Assembly: GCA_905178155.1 (NCBI GenBank)
Contig: CAJINV010000004.1
Coordinates: forward strand, 2,440,228-2,504,227
Length of the DNA stretch: 64,000 nt
Direction: 5' to 3'
Source of the DNA: Amoebophrya sp. A120
Taxonomy: Eukaryota; Protista; Dinoflagellata
Program-made: the position numbers and the translations under genes
In this document: positions 7,416-64,000 of the stretch, in pieces
Numbering within the stretch: the first letter of the stretch is position 1
Layout of the letters: the number at the start of each line of letters is the position of its first letter
The notes under the pieces: generated by a model
Told to the model about the DNA's origin: nothing
Database searches by the model: none
The model's input: only the letters and a program-made list of their open reading frames with translations

Positions 7416-8815
7416 ATGTCCGCAGCCCGCCGCTCTCCCAGTCCACCGGCGCGGCGGATGCAGTCCTTTGATTTGGAAAACGACATGAACCGGCAGGACG
7501 GCATGCACTTACCCCCAACGAAATCGCCGGTTTTATCCCGCCTATCCACGACTTCCAACCTGCTTCTCTCGGAACGCGAGCGATCGCCCAAACGGTCCCT
7601 GATTGAATCGCCCCGGATTGCCGGCCCGATTGACAAGGCGGACACGGGTATGAGCTGTTGTTCAACACTGCAATGTAGTCGAACTGGGTTTGGGGGGATT
7701 TTTAATACGTTAGTATACTTGTAGATCTACTACGTAGAAGTTCATGCCAGTCGTGCATGTGAGCGCTCCATTTGTTTGCAAACAAATCGCGGCCCGCGCA
7801 GCGAAGCGAGCATGGGAAGCTTTTTCGCTCTTCTTACCTCATCCTGAGCCCGGCATAAGAAGCCATGTTCTGCACGAGCCGGAGCCGACGGCATGTTTTC
7901 GTGTGAGACGTGAATCCTGTAGTTGTGAATGTGATTGTTGCGAAAAGTAGACGAAGCACATAGAGCAACTAAAACTATGCATGATGCTTCCTCCAGACCC
8001 AGTCAGCTTGTGTTTTTTTTTGCAGCTCATAACAACCCGGATTCTGGAGTTAAAAAACGAAGAATTGGAGAAGAAAGACAAGGAGTTACAGCGTTTGCAG
8101 CACCTTTTATCCGAGAAAGACACGATCCTGGCGGGCAATGAGCAGAAAATTCGCGAACTGGCGTTATCGCATCTGGGTCAGCAGGACAGCGACAGTCTGC
8201 GATTAACGCGGCACTTTCCGGAAATGGACCCGTTTGGCGCCGGAAAACGGCAGTTGCCGACGGTGGCGGCCATCGAGCAGGCGGCCCACAACCACCTGCG
8301 CTTCAAGGACAAAGCCCAGGACGAACAGGTTTTAAAGTTCGTCTGCAGGCTGTACCTGGAAGGGCTGACCAAAGTGCAGGCCGGGGAGTGGAAGCGGTGT
8401 CTGCAGATCTGCGAGCACCTGCAACGGAACCTGGCGAAAACGTACGCGTCCAACAACTGGACGGTCACACTGGGCTGGTATTCTTACAGCGTGTCAAATG
8501 CGGACAAGCTATCCTGTGCAAAAGCATCATGCTCGTACTAGTCGCAGCCATGCAAGACAAATATCTTTTTCAAGCTAAATCAGCATGACAAGTTCCATTT
8601 GTCGCACCGAGCTAATTTGTAGGGCAATACTACGAGTGCGATACTTTTGAAAAGTACACAAGTACCTGCTCATTGATTGCGACACCCACCTGGGGACGGC
8701 GTTTCCCCGGATCTTTGTGCTCCGCGGAACCGGGGACGTGGTGTTTCCGAAATCCCCAAGGCTGTCCCCGAGGATGAGCGGTACCGGGACTGTTACTGTC
8801 GGTGCTCCGTCGTAG
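7416..8815 (+). CDS. Hypothetical coiled-coil protein with possible LC8/dynein-light-chain-like C-terminal domain
   Basis: Exons 7416-7647, 7751-7890, 8026-8508, 8663-8815 (GT-AG, GC-AG and one introner) give a continuous frame. Coiled coil ELKNEELEKKDKELQRLQHLL; C-terminus ICEHLQRNLAKTYASNNWTVTLGWYSYSVSNADKYLLIDCD...RIFVLR. Confidence 0.65.
8510..8658. mobile_element. Introner-like element, family B (149 bp)
   Basis: TATCCTGTGCAAAAG...GATACTTTTG degenerate TIR; TSD CAAGC/CAAGT; 154-nt removal restores the frame. Confidence 0.85.
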
Positions 8816-9428
8816 CAGGACGTTTTTGCTGTACTGAGGTCGTGCGAGTATTGAAATGGAAATTCAAATAAAGCAGCGGCGCAATTCATCTCGAGCAGCG
8901 GATCGCTCGGCAAAGCAGGATCTTCTTGAGCAGACACAGACGAGGAAACTTTAACTTTACATACTGTACTCATTCCAGCAGGGTAGTTCTTTCTAAATGC
9001 TAGAGCTTAGGGGCATAGTCTATCATGGCTGGACAGCACTACTAGGGGTATCTAACCTCTTCAGATGACAAATAAGCACGTGAAGACTATTCAAACGCGA
9101 CGACTACTTGCCGTACTACGTACAACTACTACTTCTTACTTACGCGACCCCGGACACAAAAGGCGAGGTATATGAATTCTTGTGCACTAGTTTTCTTGTG
9201 CAATCGAAAGTTTGAAAATGAAATAGAGAAAGACAAACTTATGTGGACTACCTGGTCCTGGACCGCAATTCTCAACTGCAAGCTGCTGAAACAGGCGTAT
9301 ACTAGCGACACTCAGCCTGGACATGCTCAGTTATGAAAAAAAAATGCGAACAGCATAAACAACAAGTCAACCAGGAATGTTTAGGTCTTCCGCGTTGTAT
9401 GTAGTGAGGTCACGAACGTTCTATCCTA

Positions 9429-15569: not shown

Positions 15570-18500
15570 ATGATTTTGATGTGTCGAGTTAGACCTCGTC
15601 TGATCCGGGCCTCGTTGTTCGTCGTGTGGCCATGTTTCTTGATGCTTTACGCGGGACAACAACCTGGTCGTGTTGCTGCTGCTCCCCGACAGTCGGAAGA
15701 TGTTGCTGCAGCGGGACGAGGTGATCATAATAACCACCCCAGCACTCTTCCCGCAGAAGAAGAATCGTTGTCTGCTCCAGAAGAGGACGTGACGCAGGAA
15801 CCCGAACCTCCTCCACTTGTGGACGAATGTCCGGACTTTATTCGGAAAGTAAAGTTCGAGTCCTGGAAGTTGCTGGTTCCTTACTGGCACATGAGCGATT
15901 TCTACCGGGAACGAATCTTCGGGGCCATCAAGCCGGACGAGGATCCTGAACCGATACTGTCCGACTCGTCTCCTGCTGGAGAAGCGTTGGAAAATGGCAA
16001 TAATCCTGGACGAAGCCGGGCAGCAAGAACATTGCAGTCACCCACAGCCCCCTCTTCCGTGGCAGTGGACCCGGGCAAGGTCCCCGAGAGTATCGAGGAG
16101 AAGGTGGCCTACGCGCTGCACCTGCAGCAAATTGCGGAGTCGAGCCATTTCGGGCTGTCGCTTTTCATGCTCGCGAAAATCATGTCTCAGGGCGAAAACT
16201 ACATCTGGCAATTATTACAGTGAAAAATGCCCCCACCCCAGAAATAATTGGCAGCATTTGTATTGCAAACCTTTCCAATGGAAACATTCCCCTTCTTGTA
16301 TATATCAGCATCACAAATTTCAATTTGCCATGCTGAATAGCGCAAATTTGTGTTGCAAAGGAGCCCAACAGCAGCCGTTTCTGTCATGCAAAAGACGCCT
16401 TGCGCACCTAGATTCTGCATCAGAAAGCCTCGCAGTCCTTTCATGCAAGACAAAAAGCAATCATCTGGAAACTTTGCATGAGAAACTGTTGCAGCATTCT
16501 GGGGTGGGGGCGTTTTTCATTGTAGTAGCAATTGTGGGGCACGGTGGCGCGGGCCAGTCTGGCGGTGACGATGTACGGGACGGCTCCTCCTACTACTTAT
16601 CGAAAGAAATAAAAACTGTTTCGCTGCATCAAACTTTTATTGCATAGAATGGAACACGACAGAAGCATTTGTCTTGCGCCGCGTGTAAGACATGGGGGAT
16701 CTAGCCGCGTTTCCCTTTCCCCTTGGGAGGCACGCATGGCAAAGTTTTCATCTTTGTCATTGTCATGTGTAAAACGAACTTGTGATGCAGAACTTGCAAA
16801 ATGAAAATCCATGACGGTGAAACACTTTTTTCTCACGATACAACCTCCGATACAGCTACCATTCCGGTTGACGAGATGGAAGAACAGGGGAGTACTTCAA
16901 ATGTGGCCGCGAGCGCACCGTCGACAGAAAATAATCCGACCGCGTCGTTTACCCGCAACTGCGCCGTGAAATTCCTGCTGCTGATAAATTTGCTGATCGA
17001 GAAAAACTTTCGGGACCCGCGGGCTGATTTGCAGACCATGACCTACATCAATTGGTTTGACATTTTCGTGGAAGAGTCGGGCACCGTGGTCATGTCGAGT
17101 TATAAGCACCCCGAGGACGTGTTTCTCATGGCGACCATGCTACGGGCGACACACCGCGTGCTCAAGGTGTTGATCACAAAACAATTCCGTCAACATCTTC
17201 CAGGTGTTTATAAAGTCACGTCAGAGCTGCAGTAGCAGTAGGAGTAAAAGTTTGTGGTTCTCGTCGATAGTATTGTACCTGTGGCGGATTCATTGCAGTA
17301 GTCGCGCTTCCTGTTATTTACGAATTCGCATCTCTAGTACTCTCACTCGTAGAACGCGGGCTGGCACAAAGTTCAAATTATGCTAGATTCTCGACGTTCC
17401 TATACACAGTAAAGAAAAAGCTACAGTGAGTTGTACTGTTGGAAGAAAATAGAGTCTGATCGACCTGGCTGCGTCTGTTATTTGGCAAGGACCACAACTG
17501 TACTCTACTTTTTTTTCGAAACTGTTTGATGATGAAATAGAAAACTTCTACTTCAAGTAGCGCTACACTTTCTATTCACAGGTCCAATTTATCCTGTATG
17601 AGCAGTACCACGGCGCGGAGTGGTTCCAGAAAAACCTTTATGAACTGGAAAATTATCGTACTCGTATAAATGCATGACAAATTCCCTCAGCATGAGAATT
17701 CAAATTTGTAATGCGGCTTTACCCTGAGAAAAAAACTTGTAATGCAAAACTTGCATTTATACGAATACGATACTTATGCACAGGATAACCTTCTCGCCCG
17801 ACAGGGGGACCGGCTGGACAGCAAGCGGCAGGGGAGTTTGAACCAGCCGGTGACCAAAAACCAGATTCAGCACTATGCGTTGCAAATATGTCTGGGTCTG
17901 GAAACTTGTGATGCTGGGTGGCGTCTCATGATGAGACCACATGTGCTGGCTCAGCATGACAAGTTTCGGAGCTTCTAGGTGTTGCCTATTCTGCATTACA
18001 GACTGCGTTCCTGCATGACAGCAAAATGGGGCTCTTGGGTAACGTGCATGACAGATTTAAGAGTCATGCCAGACAAGCATGACAAACATGCACTCTTCCA
18101 GACCCAGACATATTTGCACTTGATAAGCACGGCAACATGACGACCTTTTTCCGCGACAGTATGAAGGATTTGCTGATCCACGATTCCTATCAACTGCAAA
18201 TATGTCTGGGTCTGGGAGATTCCGAGATTTGTCATGCAGTAGCAGTTTTTCCAAGGTCCGCCAAGACTGAAATGCAGGGCCGAGCATCACAGGTTCTGCA
18301 GCCCCTTGGTGATGCCTATTTTGCATGAGAAATGTTCTCTCAGTATGGCCAGAAATGGACAGCTTTTGCAAGCCATGCAATACAGATTTTTGTAGGATGC
18401 GCAACACGCATCACAAGTTCGCAGCCTTCGAGACGCAAGCATATTTGCATTTGATAATTCCTCCCACGCGCACCATCCCATCTACGCGCTCGACCACACC

Positions 18501-21500
18501 GCCACGCGGAGTCACTCGCTGAACTGGGTCAAGTTTCTGGCCGGGTTCCCGGAACGCTTTGCGGAAATGCTGCTGAAGAACGAAGAGAAGACCGAACTGC
18601 TGTCGGACTACGTCTATCCTGTGCGAAAGTATCGTACTCCTACCTACTAATCGCAAATATGCATGACAAATCTCCATCCTAAGGTAAAACAGCATTATAA
18701 ATTCCACTTTTCCCCTTGCCAAAAGTTGTGATGCAATTTATACTGGTACGCTGCTTTTGCAATGCATAACGTCGTTTCCAGTCTTCTCGGCCCCAGCCAC
18801 ACCGCGGGGCTCGTCGAGGAGGAGGAGAGGTCGAAAGCCGTACACGACGGTGCGTTCGCGTCGGAGACGAGGCCGAAGCGGCGCAAGCAGCTGGATATGG
18901 ATTGCAAATATGTCTGGGTCTGGAAGGATGCGAACTTGTCATGCTAAATCTGAATCGTGTAAAAATCTGTGTTGCGTGATTAGCCAAAAGCTGTCCACTT
19001 TGGACCTAATCGAGAGGCAGTTGCTCATGCAGGATAGGCATGGCAGAACTCTCACAGAATCTGTCATGCTATGTTCTACATACCAGACCTCATGGGTCAT
19101 GGAAAACCGGCATGACAAATCTGGCATTCTGGAACTCTTCCAGACCGAGACACTTTTGCGGTTGATACTGGACGTAGCCCTGCAAAAGTGGGAGGAACGA
19201 CGCGAGGAGTCTTCCTCTCTAGCAACGGGTCGTGGTCCACCACCTCTACTGCAAATGAATACACGACAAGGCGGCCCCGAGATGACGAGCCCAAATCACG
19301 ACGATCGCACGAGGACACAGTGGCACCAGCTTTCCTTGGCTGAGCCTCCAGGTGGTGGACTCGAAGAGCCGGGCACTACCATGTTCGCAAACCGATCGAA
19401 AATCTACCACCCACTGTACGTGCTCGCGGTCCTGATCCGCGCCGAAAATGAATTCGGGATTTTCCCGTTCGCAACCAGAAAAGCCGTCGCCGTGCTGGAA
19501 GCGGCCTTTCAAAAAAAGAACGTCAAGATGAACCAGCGCAACAAAAGCATAATAGCGGAGGAGGACCACACGAAACGCCAAAGCGAGGTTGAAGACAACG
19601 ACCTATCGCGGGTGCTGGTCTTCCGACGAGAAAGTACAAGCGGGAAGCAGCCAGAGGAGCACGCAGAAGGAGCCACAAAGGCGGGGCAACCACATCTTCA
19701 ACAAGAACTTGCGGCGATTCTGGACTCGGAGCTGGATGATTATACAACTTCTTCACCAGATCATCATCATTTCTTGGCCGAACAGCCACACGAAGATGTT
19801 GTTGAGAGGCGTGAAAGAACGCCAAGCTCAGACCTACTTTCACATAACATCAATCCAACGTCTTCCAGTAGTACGCTGAACATCACGTACAGCACCGAGG
19901 CGACGCACGTGGACTTGGTGGCCAATGAGGACGCCTGGCTGAAGAAGGTCAACAAACAAATTCGCGACCCGCAGGTTTGTCAAGAAGCTCAAGTCGGGCG
20001 GTCGTCCGAAAAAGCACATCAAGCACAACATATTGCAAAAAGCCCAGAACAAAGAGATGAAGACGAGCTCATAGTACAGCAGCAAACCCGTTGCCTCCCC
20101 ACGCATTCGTACAGCGAAGTCCGGTTTGCACTGAACCGCATGCGGAAACTATCAAATGCACAAATGTCTGGGTCTGGAAGATTTCTAGATTTGTCATGCA
20201 TATTTTCCATGAGCCATGATGTCTGTGATGCACGCCGCAGCGTCACAAATTTTATAGAGGGCTTTGCGATACCTCTACCGCATGAGAAATGCCCTCTCTA
20301 TGTGGGACCAACCCGACTCCTCTTGCTGGTCATGCAATACAAATTTTTTTAGCATCCACAGACAGCAACACAAGCTGTGACCTTCCAGACCCAGACATAC
20401 TAGCCAGGGGGAAGGAATCTCTATCCCGAAGCGAAATCGAGAGCACTGGGAGGGGGGAAGCAGAACTAGAAGGAAAGGACGGGGGGGAAGGGTACGGGTG
20501 TGTCAGCTAGTCAGTTTCAGGTAGCCACTGGGGTCCTGGTTGTTTCGATGAGATTCGAGACGCGGCCGCTCTGCTCTTGGCCAAATTATATATTTGCGGA
20601 GCTCTTGCGGATAATTCTGGCTATGGAGCGGCATTTAACTTGGCAAGTCGCTGGCTGCCGATCTTATTTTTCCGCAGGTGTGGGCCGTTTTGTGGATCTT
20701 TGCTTGTGCGTTTATTTTGAGAACTATGCGCGTTTGAAGATCATGGCGCGCCTCATATTTTCCGCGGCGGGACTTTCTCGGAAGCTTGGCCGGAGCTTTT
20801 GCGTAGAAAGATCGGGAGGGCGTTCGCGCCGCCTCCTTCTCTATGTGCGAACAGATTCCGGCGGCCATTTTCTCCCGTGTTTTCTTGTGTCTGTTGCGGG
20901 GCCTGTTTCTCTATCTGCGAACAGTTTGAAAACCACGCAGAAGCGACGAGGCAAACGGCGGAACACAACGAGGCGGGGAGGCCAGACCTTCGGGACAAGG
21001 AAGATAGAGACGGGAAAGAGTGGAAAGACGAAAAAGGCGGGAAAAACTGAACAGACTGCGAGAACTGGGAGGGCTAGGGAAGCCTGTAAGAAAGACTGGG
21101 GCGGCTGAGGGGGCTGAGAAGCTCAAAAGGCGAATGAGGTTCGAAAGGTTGAGCAAACTGGAGAAGCCGGGAAGGCTGAAAACCTGGGAAGGCGGGGAAA
21201 CGAAAGCGAGCAAGCCTGGAAGCGAAGGCGCTGACTTGCTGAGAGGCCTCGGCGTCGCTTTTGCCTAGAGCTGGAGGGCGTTCGCGCCGCCTCCCTCTCT
21301 ATGTGCGAACAGATTCCGGAAGCTGTTCCGCGTTTCTCTTTGTTGCGGCGGCTGTTTTTCTGTCATAGAACTGCTAAGGCAACCGAGAGGCCAGCAGCTC
21401 CATGGAAAAGTCCGGCGGCCGCAGAGCCCAAAGGAGGCGCGGCGGGGCCCCGTTGCTGCAGCTTCGCAGCTTCAGCAGGCAGATTGGCTGGCGCGCCTGA

Positions 21501-24500
21501 AACAGCTGTGGCAGCTCGATAAGTAAGCGGAGCAGGCAGGAAAAGCCCGGGGTAGCTACAAAACCGGCTGTAGGTAGTTAAAGGACCGGCTTTAGTTAAC
21601 AAGGCGGGTGGAGCTAACGAGCCGGGTTTAGCTAACAAGCCGGCTTTGGGTAAAAAACCGGCTTTAGCTAAAAAATCGGCTTCAGCTAAAAAACCGGCTT
21701 CCGCTAAAAAAGAAACCGGCCGCGGCTAACAAACCGGCTTCAGCTACAAAGCCGGCTTGGGCTTTAGCTAGAAAACCGGTCTTAGCTAAAAGAGCCGGGA
21801 ACGAAGCTGGGAGGCCGACAGGCTGGGAGGTGGACAGGCTTGCTGGGAAGGTGGGGGGCTTGGGGGCTTGGAGGGCCAAAGGCTAAAAACGGAGAAGCGA
21901 AAACGAAAAAGCCAGGAGGCAGACAGGCTGGGAAGCGAGCAAGCTTGGAAGCGAAGGCGCTGACTTGCCGGGAGGCCTCGGCGTAGAATTTGCGTGCCTA
22001 GAGCGGGAGGGCGTTCGCGCCGCCTTTCTCTATGTGCGAACAGACTCGGGAAGCTGTTCCGCCTTTCTCTTTATTGCGGCGGCTGTTTTTCTGTCCTAGA
22101 ACTGCTAGGGCAACCGAGAGGCCAGCAGCTCCATGGAAAAGCCCAGCGGCCGCAGAGCCCAAAGGAGGCGCGGCGGGGCCCCCGTGCTGCAGCTTCAGCA
22201 GCTAGACTGGCTGGCGCGCCTGAAACAACTGCGGCAGCTCTACAAAACCGGTTTTAGCTAAAGGAACGGCTCGAGCTAACAAGCCGGGTCTAGCTAACAA
22301 GCCGGGTTTAGCTAACAAGCCGGCTTCAGCTAAAAAATCGGCTTCAGCTAAAAAACCGGCTTCCGCTAAAGAAGAAACCGGCGTGCTCAGCTAAACGACC
22401 GGCGTCAGCTACAGTGTCGGCGTCAGCTACAGCGAAAAGAACCGGGAAGCCGGGAAGCCGGGAAACCGGGAAACCGGGAAACCGGGAAACCGGGAAACCG
22501 GGAAACCCTGGAGTGGTTTCGGGTAAGGGTATCGCTGGAGTGGTTTCGGGTAAGGGTACGCGGGGAGTGATAAAGTGCTTCACGATTTCAGTACTTTCGG
22601 GCAATTTCTACCTTTCCCGGGTCTATATATATTTGTATTTGATAGAGCCTTTCGCAAACCGAATTGAATCCTGAGTACCGCGAGTTGTGGGGGTTCACCT
22701 ACATGGATTTGCAAAATGCGGTGAAGAAAGCCTTCCAGCGCTTGCAAACATTATTGGAGCTCGCGCACCGGCACTGGCGGCGGGAAAAGGTGAAGACGTA
22801 CTTCGAGCGGCTGTTTCAAGCGAGGTTTGACCATCTTGTTCATGATCGGGGAACTGCAGGATATTTATTTTCCACTAAGGACACTGATGTTCTTACCCCC
22901 TGGCGGCTGGTGAACGTCGAGAGTCTGGTAACCACTCCAGTGGAAGACGCTGTTACTGAGCAGATGCGCGGCTACCCGGGCGGCCTCCCCGCCGCGGAAG
23001 CCGAGCGGGCTGAGTGGCAGAACCCGCGGCGGAAGGTGAGAAGAGAACTTTGGGCGGAGAATCGAGAAAAACTGGAACGAAAGTTGCAAGAAAGTGTGGA
23101 GAGGGACGAGTTTTCTGTTTTACAGGTGGGGGGCAGAAGAAACAGAATAACAACTGAAAAGAAGGATGCAATAGACCACAAAAAGACCTCCACGAGCGAC
23201 GTGATGGCGGATCATTTGCACGAAAAAGACCCAACCGAAGATGAAGAAGGTGCGTTTCTTCAGGAGGACGCTCATCTTGACGGGCAGCAACTTGGCAATG
23301 ATCACGTGTCGGTGGAGGCGAACGCAGTCCCGAGTAGAAGTACTAGAACTCCGCTCTTGCTACTCTCCCCCGGAGCGCTGGCCCGCGTGAGGAGAACGTC
23401 CGAGGCCGCCGCTTCTCTGCACCAGAGCAGGCCAGAGCTACAAGAGGAACTCGAAGTAGCAGGAGCCCGTCGTCCAGAGCGACCTCCAGAAGGCACACCC
23501 CCACGACAATCGTCGACAAGAACTCTTCTGCAACTCCAGCCCGTGAGCGAACTGATCGCGAAGTCCAAAACTATTCGCACCGCGTCCCGCACGCACTTCG
23601 GGTCCATTTTCAACGTGCGCAAAAACCACCAGCTGTGGGCGCTGGAGAACCCCTACGACCTTTGGACGGACTTCGCCGACGAGGGCTACTTGGCGACCCC
23701 ACTTGCCGACTACGCGGAGGACCACAAGGACACCGTGCTGGAGCGGATTTTCGAGGTTATCGGCGTACACAACCACTTTTTCGTGGAAATCGGCACCGGC
23801 CTCGGCACGGAATGTAACAGCCGCTACTGGCGTATGGGGTTCTCAAATGTTACATTCTCAGCTGTTACATGAATTTGTAATGCAAGAATGGCAAGAGTGA
23901 GAGGGCAAATATATACGCCTTTTGCATTACAGGTTTGGCGCATATTCTAGTGCTATCTAGCGCGTCGAGAACTTGTCATGCGAAGCAGCTTTACGGTGTA
24001 GATACTGATGAGAGTTTTGCATGACAAACCATGTAACAGTTGAGAGCGTAACGCTTGAGAGTCCTATATGGCGCGTGATGCGCGGCTGGGACGTGCGGAT
24101 GTTCGATGCCACCGCGGATCTGCCGCACATTATGCATAGCAAATATGTCTGGGTCTGGAAAGTTGCAACTTGTAATGCTAAGTCTGGATCGTGCAAAAAT
24201 CTGTGTTGCATGAATGCCAAAAGCTCTCCACTACTTTTGACCAAGTTGAGAGGAAGTTTCTCATGCAGGATACACATGATGGGGATCTCACAGAATCTGT
24301 CATGCTAGGTCCTGCATTCCAGACGACATGGATCACGGAAAATCTGCAACACAAGCCTCGGAATCTTCCACACCCAGGCATGTTTGCTTTTGATACACAT
24401 TAACCTACGACAACAACTGATCAACCCGGACAACGTCAATGAGGTTTTCGCATCGCACGCTGTACCGCAAACCTTCGACGTGCTTTCGATCGATGTGGAC

Positions 24501-26719
24501 TCCTTTGACTGGCACCTGCTCCGCGCGGTGCTGTATCCTGTGCAAAAGTATCGTACTCGTAACAATTGCAGTCATGCATTACACATTTTTTTCCTAAGGT
24601 AAATCCGCATGACAAATTTTGTTTCTCATGCTGAGGGAATTTGTAATGCATTTGTATGAGTACGATACTTTTGCAATGCATATGCTGCTCCAGGGAAAGT
24701 TTCTTCCCCGCGTCATCATCGTCGAGCACACCGCCTCCATGCATCCCTTTGACGCCCGCTACTTTTCCCGGTACTTCAACGCCACCAAAACGGCGCGGTC
24801 GGACGGAAAGCGCGACGGCTTCGGCCGCGGACTCTACCAGTACTGGAGCCATTTTGGGTCGTCCATTCTGACTTTCCTCGACCTAGCGAACGCGTTCCGC
24901 TACGACCTGGTGTACTACTGCGACACAGATCTGGTCTTCGTACATCGAGACATATCCATCGAAAATTGTGTTGATTGTGGCGATGTGTTTGTTCTATTTC
25001 AGTATTGTGTTGCGGATCATGCAAGGCAGTTACTCCTACGATACTGAGTTTAAGGCGAGCCTGACTTAGTTTTTGTCACGAGTGAAGAAGACTTCGCTTT
25101 ACGAGTGGCGAAAAGAAATGTATCACACCAAAACGCAGTTTTGTCATCCTGGATAGAGTAGCCACTTCGGGACCGGGTTGGAGCTGCGGAAGGATCATTC
25201 CGCCGCGTTGCGGGGCGGGAAAAAACTCAGCAGATATGCAAGAAAAAAACTATGAATGTGAGTGTAAGTCTGTGATGCAGAAAGTGCAAAACTACTGTTA
25301 CACTCGTCATGCTGGATGTGCATCAGAGGCTCTTTTCGTACGTGTTTTCACGTGCTAGCTACGCATGACAGGTTTTCCGTGTCATGCAGAGCAAACTTGT
25401 GATGCTATTCCTCCAAGAAAATTACACTTACACAGTTTTTTCCTTGGATAGCAAAACAACTTCGAGTACTTCAACGAGGACCACGGGCAGTTCGTCCGCT
25501 GCTTCAGCGAATAAAGATTCCAGAAGTACAGGGGAAGATATTCCGGAGCAAAAAAATGATCGCGAGCAGCCACCGAGCACAGCGACCAGGACTTCTGCGA
25601 GCAGTGAAGTAGAGGGCGGTGTGTACGGCCTGGTCGTGGTGGACGAGAAAAATATTGATCACCGAGAAGAACCTCCTCGTTTGAACGGTATCACCGAGGT
25701 CTTTGGCGACCGGGACGATTCGACGGTGCTTTGGGAGCAGTATACGCCCGAAAAAGACACGGAACTCCGGCGAGGAGCCAGCTTGGTACAATGGCAGGAA
25801 GGGGAGGAAAGGAGAACGAGGACGACCATCGCTGACCTAGTTCTTCTTGCTGAAACCACGACTACTGCCCCACCACCGCCGCCCTCCCTCCCCGCCTCTG
25901 AACTGCCCAAGATCGGGTCGCTTTCGTACGTATGGATTGCAAATATGTCTGGGTCTGGAAGAATGCGAGATTTGTCATGCAGTTTTTCCATGACCCATGA
26001 GGTCTGGAATGCAGGACCTAGCATGACAGATTCTGTGCGATCGTTCTCATGCCTATTCTGCATGAGAAACTCCCTCCCGACTTGGTCAAAACTGGACGAC
26101 TTTTGGTAATCATGCAACACAGATTTTTGCATGCTTAAGATTTAGCATGACAAGTTGCATACTTCCAGACCCAGACACTTTTGCACTTGATATTACGACG
26201 TGCGCAACGCAGTCGCGGAGAACGACGGGCGGAGGCCGAGGTTCCTATCAACTGCAAAAATGTCTGGGTCTGGAAGAGTGCATGTTTGTCATGCTTTTCT
26301 GGCATGAGTCTTAAATCTGTCATGCACGTTACCCAAGAGCCCCACTCTTCTGTCATGCAAAAACGCAGTTTGTCATGCAGAATAGGCAACACCTAGAGGG
26401 CTTCAGAAACTTGTCATGCTGAGCCAGCACTTGTCGCTTCCTCATGATACGTCACCCAGCATCACAAGTTTCCAGACCCAAGCATTTTTGCATTTGATAG
26501 TTCCTCGGCATAAACAACCCGACGAAACTGTGCGAGCTGTACCAGCAGAGCGGGCGGTCGGTGGCGCGGCACCGGCTGTATCGGGGTAACGAAAATTACT
26601 GTTTTCCCAAAAGTATCTCGCCGCAGTGGAGTTTGGAGGAAATCCGGCTGAATTTTTGGCCAAGCCCAAAAACGACGTTTACCCCACAAGAGCTGCGGGA
26701 TGAGAATGTGAAAATTTGA
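15570..26719 (+). CDS. ~1641-aa secreted or membrane-anchored protein with a class I SAM-dependent (FkbM-like) methyltransferase domain
   Basis: 17 exons: 15570-16212, 16533-16597, 16846-17166, 17582-17638, 17793-17873, 18131-18187, 18462-18614, 18774-18895, 19173-20149, 22650-23832, 24074-24130, 24401-24533, 24688-24952, 25161-25234, 25456-25930, 26198-26245, 26505-26719 (4926 nt; 15 introners + GT-AG intron 17167-17581). N-terminal hydrophobic stretch; motifs FFVEIGTGLGTECNSR..GWDVRMFD..INL..INPDNVNEVF..VPQTFDVLSIDVDSFDW..FLPRVIIVEH..HFGSS. Confidence 0.8.
16213..16527. mobile_element. Introner-like element, family C (315 bp)
   Basis: TATTACAGTGAAAAATGCCCCCACCCCAGAA TIR; TSD GCAAT perfect. 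Confidence 0.9.
16598..16840. mobile_element. Introner-like element, unclassified/degenerate (243 bp)
   Basis: TATCG...CGATA ends; TSD CTACT/CAACC (3/5); removal restores the frame. Confidence 0.7.
17639..17787. mobile_element. Introner-like element, family B (149 bp)
   Basis: TATGAACTGG...GCACAGGATA; TSD ACCTT perfect. Confidence 0.9.
17874..18125. mobile_element. Introner-like element, family A (252 bp)
   Basis: TGCAAATATGTCTGGGTCTGGAA TIR; TSD AGCAC perfect. Confidence 0.92.
18188..18456. mobile_element. Introner-like element, family A (269 bp)
   Basis: TATCAACTGC...GCATTTGATA; TSD ATTCC perfect. Confidence 0.92.
18615..18768. mobile_element. Introner-like element, family B (154 bp)
   Basis: TATCCTGTGC...GCAATGCATA; TSD ACGTC perfect. 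Confidence 0.92.
18896..19167. mobile_element. Introner-like element, family A (272 bp)
   Basis: TATGGATTGC...GCGGTTGATA; TSD CTGGA perfect. Confidence 0.92.
20400..22629. mobile_element. ~2.2-kb non-coding repetitive insertion nested in an introner TIR
   Basis: Imperfect ~15-bp TIR TAGCCAGGGGGAAGG / CCTTTCCCGGGTCTA at a TA site. Internal ~730-bp duplication (from ~21205 and ~21933, partial third copy ~20815); GCTAACAAGCCGG and GGGAAACC mini-repeats. Confidence 0.7.
22441..22508. repeat. (CCGGGAAA/G)n octamer tandem repeat
   Basis: About 8 units, read directly. Confidence 0.9.
23833..24068. mobile_element. Introner-like element, family D (236 bp)
   Basis: TATGGGGTTCTCAA...TTGAGAGTCCTATA; TSD TGGCG perfect. 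Confidence 0.9.
24131..24395. mobile_element. Introner-like element, family A (265 bp)
   Basis: TSD CACAT perfect; family A TIR. Confidence 0.92.
24534..24682. mobile_element. Introner-like element, family B (149 bp)
   Basis: TGCAAAAGTATCGTACTC TIR; TSD TGCTG perfect. Confidence 0.92.
24953..25155. mobile_element. Introner-like element, degenerate (203 bp)
   Basis: TATCCA...TGGATA ends; TSD eroded (AGACA/GAGTA); removal with 5 flanking nt restores the frame (VHRDSHFGTG). Confidence 0.6.
25235..25450. mobile_element. Introner-like element, unclassified (216 bp)
   Basis: TATGCAAGAAAAAAACT / AGTTTTTTCCTTGGATA TIR; TSD GCAGA/GCAAA. Confidence 0.8.
25931..26192. mobile_element. Introner-like element, family A (262 bp)
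   Basis: TSD GTACG/TTACG; family A TIR. Confidence 0.9.
26246..26499. mobile_element. Introner-like element, family A (254 bp)
   Basis: TSD GTTCC perfect; family A TIR. Confidence 0.92.
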
Positions 26720-46063: not shown

Positions 46064-46068
46064 TGTTG

Positions 46069-48362: not shown

Positions 48363-48495
48363 CGTCAGTACTATCAGCACGATGGCGCTTTAATGAGTAT
48401 ACAGAGCTGACTGTCACCCTGTCGCTGTATGTCGGACGACGACGCGGCGAAGCGGGTGGGGATCTCTGTGAGCCGGCCGCCCCGCCGGCAACAGA

Positions 48496-51782: not shown

Positions 51783-52039
51783 TTTTTCGTGTGGTAGTGC
51801 AAACCCGAACACCCATGCTACGGCGGTTTTCAGATCTTTGCACTCCCTGGATATCAAATGCGTTTTCAATGAAAAAACAAAAAAAAACTGCCCCCAAACT
51901 GCTCCCGAGGTCGCGAAATTTGTCGCGATCCGAGTGGAGTCCATGACTCTTATCTCGGTAGTACCATCAAAAACGGCGCTCCCGAAAATCTCTTTTGCAC
52001 GGAAAAAGCGAAACGGTGGCAAGACCTCCCGCGAAGCCG

Positions 52040-52565
52040 AGCCGACCCGTTCGGCCTGGCTCGGCCTCAAGATTGGCCGGGCGGCGGTTCCTCGCCCTTC
52101 GGCCCGCGCTGGCGGTGATCTGCGAAGCACAGCGCGAGCCAAAAGGCGACAAAACCGAACCCGTTCGGCCCGGCTCTGCCTCAAGATTGGCCGGGCGGCG
52201 GTTCCCAGGCCAGCCTTTCGGCCCGCGTTGGCTTGGCGGCGATCTGCGAAGCACATCAGGAGCCAAAACGCGACAAAACCGAACCCGTTCGGCCTGGCTC
52301 TGCCTCAAGATTGGCCGGGCGGCGGTTCCCAGCCTTTCGGCCCGCGCTGGCGGTGATCTGCGAAGCACAACAGGAGCCAAAACGCGACAAAACCGAACCC
52401 GTTCGGCCTGGCTCTGCCTCATGATTGGCCGCCCGGGCGGCGGTTCCTAGCCCTTCGGCCCGCGCTGGCGGTGCTTTGCGAAGCACAACAGGGGCCGGCT
52501 CCTAGCCCTTCGGCCCGCGCTGGCGGTGCTTTGCGAAGCACAACAGGGGCCAAAACGCGACAAAA
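52040..52565. repeat. ~115-bp GC-rich tandem repeat, about 4 units plus partial units, next to the right TIR
   Basis: Recurring CCCGTTCGGCCTGGCTCTGCCTCAAGATTGGCCGGGCGGCGGTTCC...CTGCGAAGCAC...GCGACAAAACC. Confidence 0.9.
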
Positions 52566-59211: not shown

Positions 59212-62200
59212 TCACTTTTCGATTTTCTCGTGCAACACGTCGTGCTTGGCGTGCAGGTCGTCGGTCTTGGCGTGCAGCTCGTCGGTTTTCTGGGCGAGTT
59301 CGTAGTGCGAGGTCTGCAGGTCTTGCGTGGTGTTGTGGGCGCCGTGCGAGAAGTGCATGACCAGGGCCGCTATCAGATCTAAAAGTGTCTGGGTCTGGAA
59401 GAATGCGCGATTTGTCATGCAGATTTTCCATGATCCATGTCGTCTGGAATGCAGGACCTAGCATGACAGATTCTGTGGGATCCCTACCATGCCTAGCCTG
59501 CATGAGAAACTTCCTCTCACCTTCGTCAAAAGTGGACAACTTTTGGCTTTCATGCAACACAGATTTTTGCATGATCCAGAACCAGCATCACAAGTTCTAA
59601 CCTTCCAGACCCAGACATTTTTGCATTTATTAGCCGTGATGCCGAGCACCGCAATGACGGAGATGACGTATGAACTGCAAAAGTCTCGTTCGTAGTAGTA
59701 GAAATTGCAATACAAATTTCCTCAGCATGAGAAATAAAATTTGTAAGAGCGGGGTAACAAACCTCCCATAAGAAGTTACCGGGTAACTTCTCATCCACCC
59801 GGCCGGGTGGATGAGAAGTTAGCCTCAGCGAGCCCGTCCGCGGTTGCTACCGCCTTCCCCGTCGGGCTCGCGCCCGTCCGTCGTTCCCATTCCCAGATCT
59901 CGGCTGGAGGGGGGGGGGTTGAGTACATGCAAAAGGAATTGAGCACTTTAATATATGCGCGCAAAAGTAATTCGCGGAATCTCTACAAGTAGCATTTGAT
60001 ACGCATTTCTACTCCTAGACAGAATCTCTAGCATGCATGTAAAAGTAAGTAGCATTTGTTTGATATGCATTTTCCCCCCCCTGGTTCCTTCGTGTTGGTT
60101 GGTTTGGTTGATATGGATTTTCCCCCCTTGCGAGTCTGGTTTAACTCGCAACCAAACCAACCAACACGAAGTAACCAGGGGGGTAACCAGGGGGGAAAGT
60201 GCATAGGTTTAACTCGCAGCCAACTGCTCGCGCGCATACGTGCGTAGATCTCTTGACATCCGTCTTGAGGTTTAGGGCCGGAGCGCTCTCAGCACTGCTG
60301 AAGCTTTAGAGCCTGAAGGGAGTGCACGCCCGAAAGGATCAGGGCGCAAGGCTTTTTGATAGCGCTTTTTTCCAAATGGCTTCATAATTCGCTTACTATG
60401 TTGCTTTTTTCTCCTTTTTTCCCGGGCCCAACTGGCACCAAGCAGTTTTTCTTTTCGCTTGTCCCCACCCGGACAAATCGGTGTAGGTCTAGGTCTAGGC
60501 CTAGGACCATCAAATGTCCTCCTCCGCGTCCGCTGTTCCGACCTCCCACCGTCCCGCCGTCGTAAAATCTTCTTTCCTCCTTCAGTCCCGGATCGCCGCG
60601 ACGTCGTGTTTCAGGGTTTTAGGGATTTAGGGTTCCTGGTTCGATTTACATGCATATAGAGACTCCGCATGTCAAGCGCTAAATTACTTTTACATGTACT
60701 CAACCCCCCCCCTCCAGCCGAGTCCGAGACCTGGGAATGGGAACGACGGACGGGCGATGGCCGGACGGGGAAGGCGGTAGCAACCGCGGACGGGCTCGCT
60801 GAGGCTAACTTCTCATCCACCCGGCCGGGTGGATGAGAAGTTAGCCGGTAACTTCTTATGGGAGGTTTGTTACCCCGCTCTAATGCGGGTTTACCTTAAG
60901 AAAAAGATTTACAATGCAAGAATTACATTTATACTACTACGATACTTTTGCAGTTCATATGACGACGACGATCACAATGATCACCGTTTCGTCGATCTCC
61001 TCGTTGTGTCAAGTGCAAAAGTGATGTCCGGGTCTGGAATGTTGCCGAATTATTTGTCATGCATATTTTGCTCGACCTAGTATGTCTGTAATGCACGACC
61101 TAGCATCTACTTCACAGATTTATCTTAGAGGGCTTCCTGAAGATCATGCCTACACCGCATGACAAATGCCCTCCCGCCGCTGGCGCCGTAGCACAAACCA
61201 GACTCCTCCTGCTGGTCAACATGCAATACAGATTTTTTTACCGTCCAAAGTAGTTACTAGCATCACAAGTTCATCCAACCTTGTAGTTCCAGACCCAGAC
61301 ATTTTGGCATTCGATAGGTTGGTTTTGTTTGTGCGCTCGCAGATTTGGATTTGGGAGTTGATGGAGGCGAGGGCCTCCGTCGCTTCCGTTCCGTACTTCA
61401 GGAGCGACAGTTGCTTGATCGGATCGCATATCCTGTGCAAAAGTATCGTACTCGTAGTAACTGCAATCAATAAAATCATGCATTTATAAATCAAAATCTT
61501 TTTCTTATCGCAAATCCGCATTACAAATTTTCTCTCTCATGCTGAGGAAATTTGTAAAAATGCATTTATAATATTACGAGTGCGATACTTTTGCAGTTCA
61601 TATCGCATTCCGTGACGATTTTTTTGAGGTTGGTCAGGAACCCGCAGACGGATGGCTTCTCCCCGGTTTTTATCAAATGTAAAAATGTCTGGGTCTGGAA
61701 GATTCTGAGATTTGTCATCCATATTTCGGATCACGCAGGTGGCGTCTGATGCAGGCGAAAGCATCACAGGTTTTGAGCACGCCTCATGATGCCTGTCCCG
61801 CATGAGAAACTTCCTACTTGCGTGCCAAGAAATGGACAGCTTTTGGCGCTCATGCAACACAAATTGAAATTTTTGTGTGTTCCAAAGGTTGCATCACAAG
61901 TTCCAACCCTTCCAGACCCAGACATTTTTACATTTGATAGTTTTGAGGGCCGTCACCACGTACCCGTTCGGGTCCGCGACGGCGTCGTAGCACGCTTTCG
62001 TGACCGCGGCGCCCGTCGTGCCCGCTGGCGCCACGTTATGGATGTGTCAGAATCGAAATCGTCAAAGTTGAAATAACTTGTAATGCATAAAATGCAACGC
62101 AAAGATTGCCTCTATTGCAGAGGACGCAACGGATGCAGATTGCAACCCTGTCGAGGGGTAAAAATTGAGCTGCTAAAGTAGCCTGACTACAAAAGGCGTC

Positions 62201-64000
62201 TTCCTTACCCAAGCAGCATTACAAACTGGATTTCAGTTCTACCCAAATTTGTCATGCGCCACTTGAAAACTAGGCGCCAACTGGTATCCGTTTTACGCAT
62301 CACAAATTATTTCAACTCTGACGATTTCGGTCCTGACACTTCCATACACGTTCACTGTGGCGTCAAGCGTCGGGTAGGGAAACAATCCCTGCATGGCCAT
62401 CTTCACCAGGGCGTCGATGTTCTGGGCGCCCGGTGGAGTGGTGAGGCTGTTGGTGTTGATGGAGGTCACGGCTTGCTTGGTCGTGCACAGCAGGTCCTCG
62501 TGAATCATTTCGGCGTAGTAGCACGACTGGCACTATCAAATGCAAAAATGTCTGGGTCTGGAAGAATGCAACTTGTCATGCTAAATCTGAAGCATGCAAA
62601 AATCTGTGTTGCATGCTTAGCACAAGTCGTCCACTTTTGACCAAGTCGGGAGGGAGTTTCTCATGCAGGATAGGCATGAGAAAGATGGCACGCAATCTGT
62701 CATGCTAGGTCCTGCATTCCAGATCCAGACCTCATGGGTCATGGAAAAGCTTCATGACAAATCGCGCACCCTTCCAGACCCAGACATTTTTGCACTTGAT
62801 AGGTACGTGGGAAGGGCTTGCGCTTCGCAGGACGTGACGCAGTCTATCAGCGCCGCGCTGGCCAGACTCAGGCACGCGGTGGACGACAAGCAATTCTGAG
62901 CGGCCCAGGTGGGGTTCATGGAGGCGGCCCCGCAGGTTCCCTGGAAGTTTTTCCAGGCGGCTTCGCAGGCGCCGCCTTGCGTCGTCGCCAGGAAGGCGGC
63001 CGGCGCCGTGGGCGGGGAGTAGGTGTCGGGCCAGGTCTATCAAAAGGAAAAATCACCCCTCGTCCCCATTATATCAAAAGAAAGTTTCTGACGCTGGACT
63101 TGATGTGTACACAGATCAGGTCTGTCTTGCAGTAGAGGACTGCAACAGGTAGCCCATATTACCAAGCCTAAGTAGAGCAGGGCTTTGACGTAGGCGGGTA
63201 GCATGGCAGATTTGTACTCTGTAGGCCCCATAGCTGCATCACAAACCGCCTGCATAATGCGGCGGAGTCGCTGGATTGGCCTTCTCGCAATACAGAGACG
63301 ATTTGTGTGGTGCACGAATCAGCATCACAAATTTTCAGAAGTATTTCTTTTTGGTATAATGGGGAGGGGGGATTTTTTCTCACGATAAGGTCTTCAGGCA
63401 CTGCAGGTCCGTCTGGGCCTTGGTCACCTCGGCCAACGCGATGGAGCTGAACGTATGAGAGTGCACAACTCCCCCTCTCCTTCATTTGAATGGCATAAAC
63501 GGCAACACAAGTGCTGGCATAAATGCAGCTTTTGCAACATGACAAACTCGCGACCGAGTTGAGTGCTGTTTCGGCTTCCGAAATCTGTCATGCAAGATGT
63601 GCCAAAGAGAAAAGGGCGGACTTGGTATTTTACATGACAAATCAGGGGGAGGGGGAGTTGTGCATTGTCATAGAACGACACGCCGTGCGAGAATTCTTGG
63701 CAAACGTGGTAGATCTGGTACATCTATGAAATGCAAAAATGTCTGGGTCTGGAAAAATGCAGAGGTTTGTGATGCAGCTTTGGCATGACCGAGAAGGTCT
63801 ACCATGCACGCCGTAGTATGACAGGTTTTGAGAAGGTCTCCGAATGCGTCATCCGCATGACAAAGCCCTTTTTTCGGTGGCCGGACATGTGCACCTTTTG
63901 GCTTACATGCATGACAGATTTTTGTGTGATGTGACATGCGCATCATAAGTTGCATCTTTCCAGACCCAGACATTTTTACATTTGATATCATCGCCATCGC
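59212..64000 (-). CDS. Cys-rich type I membrane protein (5' end outside the window) with a His-containing coiled-coil tail
   Basis: Exons in plus-strand coordinates 63993-64000, 63678-63724, 63393-63453, 62807-63037, 62352-62533, 61945-62036, 61608-61670, 61322-61428, 60965-61006, 59638-59668, 59212-59370 give 341 uninterrupted codons including the stop after removing 10 introners. TM VIIVIVVVISVIAVLGIAALVM; tail ELAQKTDELHAKTDDLHAKHDVLHEKIEK*. Confidence 0.82.
59371..59632. mobile_element. Introner-like element, family A (262 bp)
   Basis: TSD GCCGC/GCCGT; family A TIR. Confidence 0.88.
59669..60959. mobile_element. Introner-like element, family B (154 bp without insert), carrying a nested MITE
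   Basis: TATGAACTGCAAAAGT / ACTTTTGCAGTTCATA perfect TIR; TSD TGACG perfect. Confidence 0.9.
59747..60880. mobile_element. 1134-bp PIF/Harbinger-like (Tourist-type) MITE
   Basis: ~200-bp TIRs starting GAGCGGGGTAACAAACCTCCCATAAGAAGTTACCGG; TAA TSD (59744-46 / 60881-83). Confidence 0.88.
61007..61316. mobile_element. Introner-like element, family A, degenerate (310 bp)
   Basis: TGTCAAGTGC...GCATTCGATA; TSD CGTTG/GGTTG. Confidence 0.82.
61429..61602. mobile_element. Introner-like element, family B (174 bp)
   Basis: TSD TCGCA perfect; family B TIR. Confidence 0.92.
61671..61939. mobile_element. Introner-like element, family A (269 bp)
   Basis: Near-perfect ~30-bp TIR TATCAAATGTAAAAATGTCTGGGTCTGGAAG; TSD GTTTT perfect. 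Confidence 0.93.
62037..62346. mobile_element. Introner-like element, family E (310 bp)
   Basis: TATGGATGTGTCAG...CTGACACTTCCATA; TSD CACGT perfect. Confidence 0.92.
62534..62801. mobile_element. Introner-like element, family A (268 bp)
   Basis: TSD GGCAC/GGTAC; family A TIR. Confidence 0.9.
63038..63387. mobile_element. Introner-like element, family H (350 bp)
   Basis: TSD AGGTC perfect; family H TIR. Confidence 0.9.
63454..63672. mobile_element. Introner-like element, family F (219 bp)
   Basis: TSD GAACG perfect; family F TIR. Confidence 0.92.
63725..63987. mobile_element. Introner-like element, family A (263 bp)
   Basis: TSD ACATC/TCATC; family A TIR. Confidence 0.9.

What the first reader, a model, noticed from the sequence alone, without database searches (positions are those of the whole stretch)
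8510..63987. Invasive transposon-intron system: 48 TAT...ATA elements with 5-bp TSDs that must be removed precisely without GT-AG
Seen: 48 elements in at least 8 families (A 20, B 10, C 2, D 2, E 3, F 3, G 3, H 2, plus 3 singletons) share TAT...ATA ends, TIRs and a 5-bp direct repeat of free sequence. One rule (delete the element plus one TSD copy) restores open frames at all 47 coding sites and rebuilds conserved motifs across junctions (kinase EGR|DLFD and NH|PW, channel PRFM|SGYL). I found no junction placement within the TSD that gives a precise GT-AG on the coding strand. Known: non-canonical introner elements with inverted and direct repeats were reported in Amoebophrya (Farhat et al. 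2021), so the class is not new; as far as I know the excision mechanism and mobilising enzyme remain unresolved. Inference: a structure-guided removal pathway works alongside the normal spliceosome, which handles about 13 canonical introns in this window.
Basis: partly seen in the sequence, partly recalled or inferred. Interest (0 to 1): 0.9.

Follow-up and report, generated by a model that had tools for sequence, protein, structure and literature searches.

The report
Transposon introns spliced at fixed offsets
These 49 small transposon copies inside genes of the marine parasite Amoebophrya A120 are an already published kind of intron that lacks normal splice signals; RNA contigs and annotated proteins show clean removal for 34 of them, and mismatched flanks point to one fixed cut position, likely read by a modified spliceosome.

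Summary
Four window genes match annotated Amoebophrya sp. A120 proteins at 100%, the genome whose TAT-starting introners Farhat 2021 described. Ends are exactly TAT/ATA in 43 of 49 and the 5-bp repeat is perfect in 33 of 49. Removing element plus 5 nt reproduces two spliced RNA contigs to the base and 3,187 of 3,187 annotated residues across 33 junctions. No register gives GT-AG (0 of 49). DNA-like contigs keep the elements.

One result I did not find in the papers searched: where the two repeat copies differ (10 informative sites), only one register fits. The cut falls 1 nt before TAT and 4 nt after ATA (chance about 0.003). It holds for both element orientations and for decayed repeats. This places TAT at +2 to +4, matching 4 of 5 canonical donors here (GTAT). 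Best reading: hairpin-guided splicing by a modified spliceosome (about 55%); rival: a separate cut-and-ligate enzyme (30%). No transposase found; published data point to an integrase-like (Ginger-type) one.

The parts
7649..8031 (+).
8510..8658 (+). Introner, 10-copy family; flanks CAAGC/CAAGT; k<=4
16213..16527 (+). Introner, pair with 42858; frame evidence only
16598..16840 (+). Introner, singleton; flanks differ but silently; frame evidence only
17639..17787 (+). Introner, 10-copy family; frame evidence only
17874..18125 (+). Introner, 17-copy family; frame evidence only
18188..18456 (+). Introner, 17-copy family, in P0003
18615..18768 (+). Introner, 10-copy family, in P0003
18896..19167 (+). 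Introner, 17-copy family, in P0003
20150..22644 (+). Introner, 17-copy family, with a ~2.2-kb insert splitting its right end; flanks GAAAC/GAGCC; k>=4
23833..24068 (+). Introner, pair with 34550, in P0003
24131..24395 (+). Introner, 17-copy family, in P0003
24534..24682 (+). Introner, 10-copy family, in P0003
24953..25155 (+). Decayed introner; flanks AGACA/GAGTA (4 mismatches) yet element plus 5 nt is removed; k>=3
25235..25450 (+). Introner, singleton; flanks GCAGA/GCAAA; k>=4
25931..26192 (+). Introner, 17-copy family; silent flank mismatch; in P0003
26246..26499 (+). Introner, 17-copy family, in P0003
28278..28434 (+). Introner, 10-copy family; flanks TCCGA/TCCGG; RNA contig gives k<=4
32538..32844 (+). 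Introner, 3-copy family, starts TTT; in P0005
33432..34497 (+). Introner, 17-copy family, with a ~780-nt insert; in P0005 and RNA contig
34550..34799 (+). Introner; in P0005 and RNA contig
34843..35143 (+). Introner, distant A-like; flanks TCTTC/TTATC; k>=3
35388..35606 (+). Introner, 3-copy family; in P0005 and RNA contig
35702..35986 (+). Introner, 3-copy family; in P0005 and RNA contig
36266..36416 (+). Introner, 10-copy family; in P0005 and RNA contig
36617..36769 (+). Introner, 10-copy family; in P0005 and RNA contig
37073..37399 (+). Introner, pair with 63038; in P0005 and RNA contig
37456..37676 (+). Introner, 3-copy family; in P0005 and RNA contig
37714..37975 (+). Introner, 17-copy family; in P0005 and RNA contig
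38191..38457 (+). Introner, 17-copy family (PRFM|SGYL); in P0005 and RNA contig
39124..39374 (+). Introner, 17-copy family; in P0005 and RNA contig
42320..42638 (+). Introner, distant A-like; flanks CCTTC/CCACC; k>=4 by protein and RNA contig end
42858..43169 (+). Introner, in kinase P0001
43233..43546 (+). Introner, ends ACA; in kinase P0001
43684..43962 (+). Introner (EGR|DLFD); in kinase P0001
44025..44279 (+). Introner, 17-copy family; in kinase P0001
44335..44484 (+). Introner, 10-copy family; flanks ATTCC/AATCC; k>=2
45633..46011 (+). Introner, singleton (NH|PW); flanks CCATC/CCCTC; k>=3 by protein, orthologue and RNA contig bounds
46069..46391 (+). Element just after the kinase stop codon; removal not shown
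59371..59632 (-). Introner, 17-copy family; frame evidence only
59669..60959 (-). Introner, 10-copy family, with a ~1.1-kb fold-back insert; frame evidence only
61007..61316 (-). Introner, 17-copy family; frame evidence only
61429..61602 (-). Introner, 10-copy family; frame evidence only
61671..61939 (-). Introner, 17-copy family; frame evidence only
62037..62346 (-). Introner, 3-copy family; frame evidence only
62534..62801 (-). Introner, 17-copy family; frame evidence only
63038..63387 (-). Introner, pair with 37073; frame evidence only
63454..63672 (-). Introner, 3-copy family; frame evidence only
63725..63987 (-). Introner, 17-copy family; frame evidence only
7416..8815 (+). Host gene, A120 protein P0004 (285 aa, no Pfam hit), 2 introners
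18137..26719 (+). Host gene, A120 protein P0003 (1250 aa, no Pfam hit), 11 introners
32034..40098 (+). Host gene, A120 protein P0005 (1272 aa, ANF_receptor domain), 13 introners and 1 GT-AG intron
42215..46063 (+). Host gene, A120 protein kinase P0001 (380 aa), 7 introners and 2 GT-AG introns
59215..64000 (-). Host reading frame (340 aa after removal of 10 elements); strand inferred, the + strand is also open
27634..27791 (+). Canonical GT-AG intron, donor GTATAG
27920..28125 (+). Canonical GT-AG intron, donor GTACGA
38677..38797 (+). Canonical GT-AG intron, donor GTATCT
44609..44999 (+). Canonical GT-AG intron, donor GTATTT
45254..45525 (+). Canonical GT-AG intron, donor GTATAA

Best explanation
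These are the published Amoebophrya A120 introner elements: short non-coding inverted-repeat sequences, likely DNA transposon copies, that sit in exons between 5-bp direct repeats and are absent from spliced RNA, and they are likely cut at one fixed register (1 nt before TAT, 4 nt after ATA) by what would be a modified major spliceosome guided by the predicted terminal hairpin.
For: Removal length: RNA-like contigs of 4,025 nt and 1,371 nt equal the genomic span minus 12 and 1 elements (+5 nt each) minus three GT-AG introns, to the base. Four annotated proteins thread with 0 mismatches in 3,187 residues across 33 junctions at k=4, against 8, 8, 7, 4, 2 and 19 mismatches at k=0, 1, 2, 3, 5, 6. 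Ten of 16 imperfect-repeat sites are informative and all ten fit k=4; chance that any one register fits all ten if each site were random is 0.003. Three of the ten also show in RNA contig boundaries (28278, 42320, 45633). The A25 orthologue aligns without gaps at the six kinase junctions in its conserved part and has the His at NH|PW. Two A-type elements in opposite orientations both give k>=4 (20150, 42320). At k=4 position +2 is T in 46 of 46, and 4 of 5 canonical donors are GTAT. Farhat Table S4: all nine predominant A120 non-canonical motifs start N-T and all nine A25 ones start T-T; Table S6 lists U5 snRNP and U2 snRNP proteins, with two Snu114 and three Brr2 genes in A120. Precedent for a spliceosome adapted to non-GT/AG introns in Fritillaria. 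All 46 elements folded have paired ends (median z -7.3).
Against: No direct evidence on the machine: no lariat or branch data. In a second genome with the same families there is no preference for G at +1 (56 of 182, like other positions) or AG at the 3' end (16 of 182 versus 10-13 at other offsets), and terminal-triplet conservation does not differ clearly between RNA 5' and 3' ends (T at position 1: 186 versus 182 of 187). The stem would hide the donor-like motif. U1 snRNA was not found in A120. TAT is also a transposon terminus, so its fit to GTAT may be chance (about 1 in 6 registers). Hairpin folding follows from inverted repeats and does not show function. Nine of the ten register sites rest at least partly on gene models built from aligned transcripts, which may share data with the RNA contigs; all ten are in + strand genes; minor alternative registers would be invisible in contigs. 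One oriented site of 39 imperfect ones in the second genome is stop-free only at k=0 (L036; 4 flank mismatches, possibly a miscalled end or frame).
Confidence: 0.55

Rival explanations
1. Same fixed register, but a non-spliceosomal protein machine (structure-specific endonuclease plus RNA ligase) cuts at set distances from the hairpin base, as proposed for euglenid nonconventional introns. This is closest to the first reader's inference.
For: No G+1 or AG preference; works in both element orientations; all folded elements pair their ends; Euglena uses fixed spacers of 3 and 5-6 nt around a paired motif and its introns leave as circles; conserved-position introns in Amoebophrya stay 98.6% canonical, so the ordinary spliceosome still seems to need GT-AG.
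Against: The exons flank direct repeats and cannot pair, so nothing obvious holds them after two cuts, unlike tRNA or IRE1 splicing (established knowledge, recalled). The stagger is 3 nt, not the 2 nt of RNase III-type enzymes (recalled). The register lands TAT on the host donor consensus. No such enzyme was identified here or in the papers read.
Confidence: 0.3
2. Removal is precise in length, but the register varies from site to site (set by local stem shape or slippage in the direct repeat); the single register is a small-sample or annotation effect.
For: Farhat Fig. 3 legend calls the splice sites variable relative to the hairpin; only 2 sites exclude k=5 at protein level and 1 more by RNA; the codon-likelihood test in the second genome was uninformative.
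Against: 10 of 10 informative sites fit k=4, chance 0.003; 7649 fixes k=4 alone; repeats with 3-4 mismatches are still removed exactly, which slippage cannot explain.
Confidence: 0.1
3. The elements are excised from DNA (as with ciliate internal eliminated sequences) in the expressed stage, and RNA only reflects excised DNA.
For: Removal leaves exactly one target copy, as precise transposon excision would; life stages were not compared here.
Against: Contigs of an evenly covered, DNA-like run cross three whole elements without a break and with 0 differences (records 11, 13, 14). The RNA-like run holds a retained-element contig bounded like the retained canonical intron (records 6 and 5). A register of 4+1 that ignores element orientation is asymmetric along the transcript.
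Confidence: 0.04

Closest known systems
Amoebophrya A120 introner elements (Farhat et al. 2021, PMC7789003)
   Same: Same organism (100% protein matches); inverted repeat starting TAT + 7 variable bases + AAA; 3-5 nt direct repeats (5 bp in Fig. S19 legend); RNA-supported non-canonical introns; about 29,850 repeated introns reported; hairpin model; mechanism open.
   Different: That paper left the border position unknown or variable; here one register (1 nt / 4 nt from the inverted repeat) fits 10 of 10 informative sites and repeat identity is dispensable.
A120 introner families in Gozashti et al. 2025 (PMC12130899), especially family 38
   Same: TIR DNA transposon-type introners of about 150, 250, 305 and 810 nt; family 38 is noted as 'Ginger, 5-bp TSD, TA/TA termini' with ORFs similar to Copia/Gypsy elements.
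   Different: No coding copy was found in this window or in the second genome's loci; I did not match window families to their family numbers; their splice sites come from annotation.
Euglenid nonconventional introns (PMC12501133; review PMC11282704)
   Same: No GT-AG; paired ends; fixed spacers with the 3' spacer longer than the 5' one; direct repeats blur the junction; likely MITE origin.
   Different: Motif CAG/CTG with 3 and 5-6 nt spacers and a purine at the exon start, versus TAT/ATA with 1 and 4 nt and no exon-base bias seen; circles were reported there, the product is unknown here; unrelated lineage.
Fritillaria borealis non-canonical introns (PMC13326754; review PMC11282704)
   Same: Transposon-derived introns with TIR and TSD removed despite non-GT/AG ends, attributed to an adapted U2 spliceosome.
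   Different: There 95% of introns are non-canonical with preferred end dinucleotides and duplicated U2AF; here the end dinucleotides are free target sequence and U2AF is listed as single copy (Table S6).
IS3EU/GingerRoot DNA transposons (PMC10045372)
   Same: TA..TA termini, occasionally TG..CA, as seen here (3 TGT-type ends in the window).
   Different: Their TSD is usually 6 bp; here it is 5 bp (253 of 324 perfect at 5, 0 at 6 in the second genome); no transposase to compare.

Membership tests
Amoebophrya A120 introner elements | Host genome is Amoebophrya sp. A120 | tested here: met
   four window genes match proteins named Amoebophrya sp. A120 at 100%
Amoebophrya A120 introner elements | Terminal inverted repeat starting TAT, with an A-rich stretch after about 7 variable bases | tested here: met
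   43 of 49 have exact TAT/ATA ends; end profiles
Amoebophrya A120 introner elements | 3-5 nt direct repeat at the exon/intron borders | tested here: met
   perfect 5 bp in 33 of 49, decayed in 16
Amoebophrya A120 introner elements | Removed from transcripts without GT-AG | tested here: met
   13 junctions by exact RNA contig length, 33 by annotated proteins, 34 distinct of 49; 0 of 49 GT-AG
Amoebophrya A120 introner elements | Repeated in families, no transposase inside | tested here: met
   8 clusters of 2-17 copies; 46 of 49 are under 400 nt; frames inside the three long ones were listed by length only
U2-type spliceosomal introns | GT/GC-AG ends | tested here: not met
U2-type spliceosomal introns | Lariat with 2'-5' branch; snRNP dependence | not testable with these tools
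   needs branch-point sequencing or inhibition
Euglenid-type nonconventional introns | CAG/CTG motif with 3 and 5-6 nt spacers | tested here: not met
   motif is TAT/ATA with 1 and 4 nt; works alike, not a member
Euglenid-type nonconventional introns | Excised as circles without lariat | not testable with these tools
   no raw reads of this strain were found on the genes
IS3EU/GingerRoot transposons | TA..TA termini | tested here: met
   first T and last A in 46 of 46
IS3EU/GingerRoot transposons | 6-bp TSD | tested here: not met
   0 of 324 perfect 6-bp repeats, 253 of 324 at 5 bp in the second genome
Ginger-type integrase-like TIR transposons | Autonomous copy with DDE integrase-like transposase sharing these ends | tested here: inconclusive
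   no element-bounded long ORF in the window or in 167 loci; whole genome not held

The most novel reading that the evidence does not exclude
A120 has a second splicing code, N|UAU...AUA-NNNN|, that is independent of GT-AG and of the target duplication, and it is executed by a dedicated machine (a specialised snRNP set or a new endonuclease-ligase) that measures 1 and 4 nt from a transposon hairpin. It would make tens of thousands of exon insertions harmless, and parallel the Euglena spacer code by convergence.
Probability: 0.35. Interest if true: 0.8.

Novelty: already known. Interest (0 to 1): 0.42.

Why it matters
The elements themselves are known. The open question is how a eukaryote removes tens of thousands of introns with no conserved end dinucleotides. 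The published work left the cut position undefined because the direct repeats hide it. A single register turns that into concrete tests: it gives exact intron ends for lariat or circle assays, predicts the mRNA base at every imperfect repeat in the genome, and suggests which nucleotides (U+2, A+3, A-7, A-5) to mutate. It would also let the A120 intron annotation be normalised, so that the reported scatter of splice motifs collapses to N-T...N-N.

Tried and rejected
No whole genome is held, so nothing genome-wide was done. Sequencing-run search listed no RNA holder on record. The two raw RNA runs laid (of three listed) gave no depth on the window's genes, only on short repeat pieces, so junction heterogeneity could not be measured. 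The joint table was filled by cross-locus matches of the DNA-like run (15 rows shown, 1,705 hidden), so single joints were not read from it. The ten minus-strand junctions have frame evidence only. First end scans were too loose. I first mis-set three boundaries (42637, 25251, and a supposed GT-AA intron near 7629); these were corrected to 42638, 25235 and element 7649-8031. The 'canonical intron' at 24985 printed was an artefact of a then-missing element. Frame-only control: removing +2 or +8 nt keeps most frames open too (34 and 39 of 46 versus 41), so frames alone fix the length only modulo 3. Codon-likelihood test of register in the second genome: uninformative, and that run had two mis-framed training genes (refitted in 59). 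Stop-codon test on 39 imperfect sites: one site excludes k=5, one allows only k=0, two have stops at all registers. An apparent orientation bias (46:19) fell to 46:32, p=0.14, with an alignment-based call. No G+1 or AG enrichment. No transposase-sized ORF in 46400-58800, 29600-31950 or an 834-nt element of the second genome; these frames were not scanned against Pfam. No Rfam match in 1-58000. Earlier-findings look-ups returned nothing. Branch-point consensus could not be drawn from five canonical introns.

Full report
Observation. A scan for TAT...ATA pairs with a flanking 5-bp direct repeat and similar ends gave about 30 clean elements. Ends are exactly TAT/ATA in 43 of 49. The repeat is perfect in 33 of 49 and has 1-4 mismatches in 16. 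Perfect-repeat pairs 100-400 nt apart number 32, against a mean of 5.4 and maximum of 11 in 100 shuffles. BLAST gives clusters of 17, 10, 3, 3, 3, 2, 2 and 2, and 7 singletons; the closest pair is 90% identical. The motif TTTGT[ACG]ATGC, either strand, occurs 56 times inside elements (34 of the 46 then listed) and never in the other 48 kb. None of 49 has GT-AG or GC-AG at any register on the coding strand.

Identity. Exon pieces of four genes each hit one protein at 100%, named Amoebophrya sp. A120. Farhat et al. 2021 (PMC7789003; I saw the abstract, passages, sections 12, 16 and 25, supplement part 3 and supplement passages, not the figures) describe this: more than 60% non-canonical introns supported by RNA-seq, about 29,850 repeated introns in A120, inverted repeats starting TAT plus seven variable bases plus at least three A, direct repeats of 3-5 nt, U1 snRNA not detected, mechanism unknown, and borders 'variable' or 'unknown' in the Fig. 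3 legend. Gozashti et al. 2025 (PMC12130899; passages, SI legends, 21 of 58 A120 rows of supplementary file 8; files 13 and 14 not searched) list 58 A120 families. The class is therefore known in this genome.

Removal happens in RNA and is exact. In one search, run X1 (RNA is the tool's guess, but its contigs skip GT-AG introns) has a 4,025-nt contig over 32845-40803. The span of 7,959 minus 12 elements with 5 nt each (3,813) leaves 121 to explain, and the GT-AG intron 38677-38797 is 121 nt. A 1,371-nt contig over 27256-29152 needs 364 nt of other introns, and the two GT-AG introns there are 158 and 206. Compensating errors cannot be excluded from sums alone, but four annotated proteins thread with no mismatch over 3,187 residues and 33 junctions. 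The A25 kinase orthologue aligns without gaps at the six junctions in the conserved part; the seventh, at residue 35, lies in a poorly conserved stretch. In all, 34 of 49 sites have RNA or protein support, 14 have frame evidence only, and 1 is in a 3' untranslated region with no evidence of removal. Run X5 (type not on record, even depth of about 45-55 in unique regions) has contigs crossing three whole elements with no difference. X1 also holds a contig that retains 45633-46011 and one that retains most of a canonical intron, so unspliced forms exist at low level. Elements with 0.8-2.2 kb nested inserts are still removed (20150 by protein, 33432 by RNA and protein), so the ends matter and the interior does not.

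The cut register. With a perfect repeat the junction is ambiguous; with an imperfect one the product tells which copy stayed. Let k be the number of bases kept from the upstream copy. Of 16 imperfect sites, 2 are silent, 4 lie in the untested minus-strand gene, and 10 are informative: 7649 (k=4 only), 8510 (<=4), 28278 (<=4, RNA), 20150, 25235 and 42320 (>=4), 24953, 34843 and 45633 (>=3), 44335 (>=2). Mismatches to the four proteins by uniform k from 0 to 6 are 8, 8, 7, 4, 0, 2, 19. The chance that some single register fits all ten if each were random is 0.003. RNA contig boundaries agree at 28278 (exact match from 28434), 42320 (piece ends at 42318) and 45633 (retained contig 45603-46044, reading its 30-nt overlaps as at the canonical intron, 44579 = 44609 - 30; this reading is my inference). 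So the intron is N-TAT...ATA-NNNN. Sites whose repeats differ at 3 or 4 of 5 positions are still removed exactly, so the cut is measured from the element end and not by repeat slippage. Elements 20150 and 42320 lie in opposite orientations and both give k>=4. Caveats: the gene models come from BLAT-aligned transcripts and may share data with X1; all ten sites are on + strand genes; contigs hide minor registers. I did not find this register in print: searches returned only the papers named here. [quoted passage not shown]

Second genome. A motif scan of the metagenome collection returned 175 loci; the rows shown were all from one assembly (JACKZZ01 contigs), and 167 loci were in the script folder. 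They hold 324 elements with 253 perfect 5-bp repeats and none at 6-8 bp. Forty-five of 49 window elements have a match there at 69-95% identity. Of 353 elements with usable flanks, 182-187 could be oriented by codon use. Both orientations occur (46:32 and 13:15). There is no excess of G at +1 or AG at the 3' end and no clear 5'/3' asymmetry in the terminal triplet. These results count against any residual GT-AG reading and do not help the spliceosome model. The stop-codon test gave one site against k=5 and one site, with four flank mismatches, that allows only k=0.

Mechanism. Shown: exact removal, absence of GT-AG, retention in DNA-like contigs, and a register fitting 10 of 10 sites. Predicted: long hairpins joining both ends in 46 of 46 folded elements, which inverted repeats would give anyway. 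Inferred: the machine. At k=4 the 5' end reads N-U-A-U-(G/C), and 4 of 5 canonical donors here read GUAU. A25 has an unrelated TTA-purine-purine end and its predominant motifs start T-T, which would again put U at +2 and A at +3 (not tested). The unpaired exons need holding during joining, which the spliceosome's U5 does (recalled). A tunicate precedent exists (PMC13326754 passages; PMC11282704 section 6). I give a hairpin-guided modified spliceosome 0.55. The Euglena code with 3 and 5-6 nt spacers and circular products (PMC12501133 passages), and the options discussed for diplonemids (PMC12621601 passages), keep a separate cut-and-ligate enzyme at 0.30. Variable register 0.10; DNA excision 0.04. 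For mobility, TA..TA ends with occasional TG..CA resemble IS3EU/GingerRoot, but those make 6-bp repeats (PMC10045372 passages), so membership fails; an integrase-like transposase elsewhere in the genome is the likely source, and none was found here. Two other strains use canonical introns (PMC12005148 and PMC11453091 passages), which offers a natural comparison.

Verdict. Real, expressed and striking, but already described in this genome. The fixed register is a useful addition that makes the mechanism testable; it rests on ten sites. Novelty: already known. Interest 0.42.

Noticed in passing
window 59746-60880: About 1.1-kb fold-back insert with long inverted ends inside element 59669-60959, flanked by TAA on both sides; resembles a MITE with a 3-bp TAA duplication (PIF/Harbinger type, recalled).
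   Followed up: partly
window 33662-34449: About 780-nt insert inside element 33432-34497, bounded by a 12-nt duplication (TCCAAAGTTAGC); the enlarged element is still spliced out.
   Followed up: partly
window 20402-22620: About 2.2-kb insert with 18-nt and 9-nt tandem repeats and a duplicated block, splitting the right inverted repeat of element 20150-22644 so that only about 17 terminal bases remain in place; the element is still removed in the annotated protein.
   Followed up: partly
all element families: Shared internal motif TTTGT[ACG]ATGC in both orientations: 56 copies inside elements, 0 outside; candidate binding site for a common transposase or splicing factor.
   Followed up: partly
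window 47400-57050: About 9.6-kb element-free, repeat-rich block with tandem 114-124 nt units and no convincing gene; two pieces (54967-55245, 56707-57054) match a 1.1-kb element in L024 at 83%.
   Followed up: no
window 31317-31423 and L033 723-830: An intergenic repeat of the window recurs nested inside an A-family element in the second genome (81% over 113 nt).
   Followed up: partly
run X7 at window 37713-37762: About 70 RNA reads carry an A-family end joined to a flank that is not this locus, although the run does not cover the window's genes: a retained element or DNA from another locus or strain.
   Followed up: no
window 32034-40098: Host protein P0005 joins an ANF_receptor ligand-binding domain, a cysteine-rich EGF-like stretch, predicted membrane segments and an EF-hand-like motif (the last two by eye); relatives found only in a few proteins, named ones being Amoebophrya.
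   Followed up: partly
window 46069-46391: Element starting 5 nt after the kinase stop codon; whether untranslated-region copies are spliced is unknown.
   Followed up: no
second genome loci: Insertion phase at k=4 is uneven: 88, 40 and 59 of 187 in phases 0, 1 and 2.
   Followed up: no
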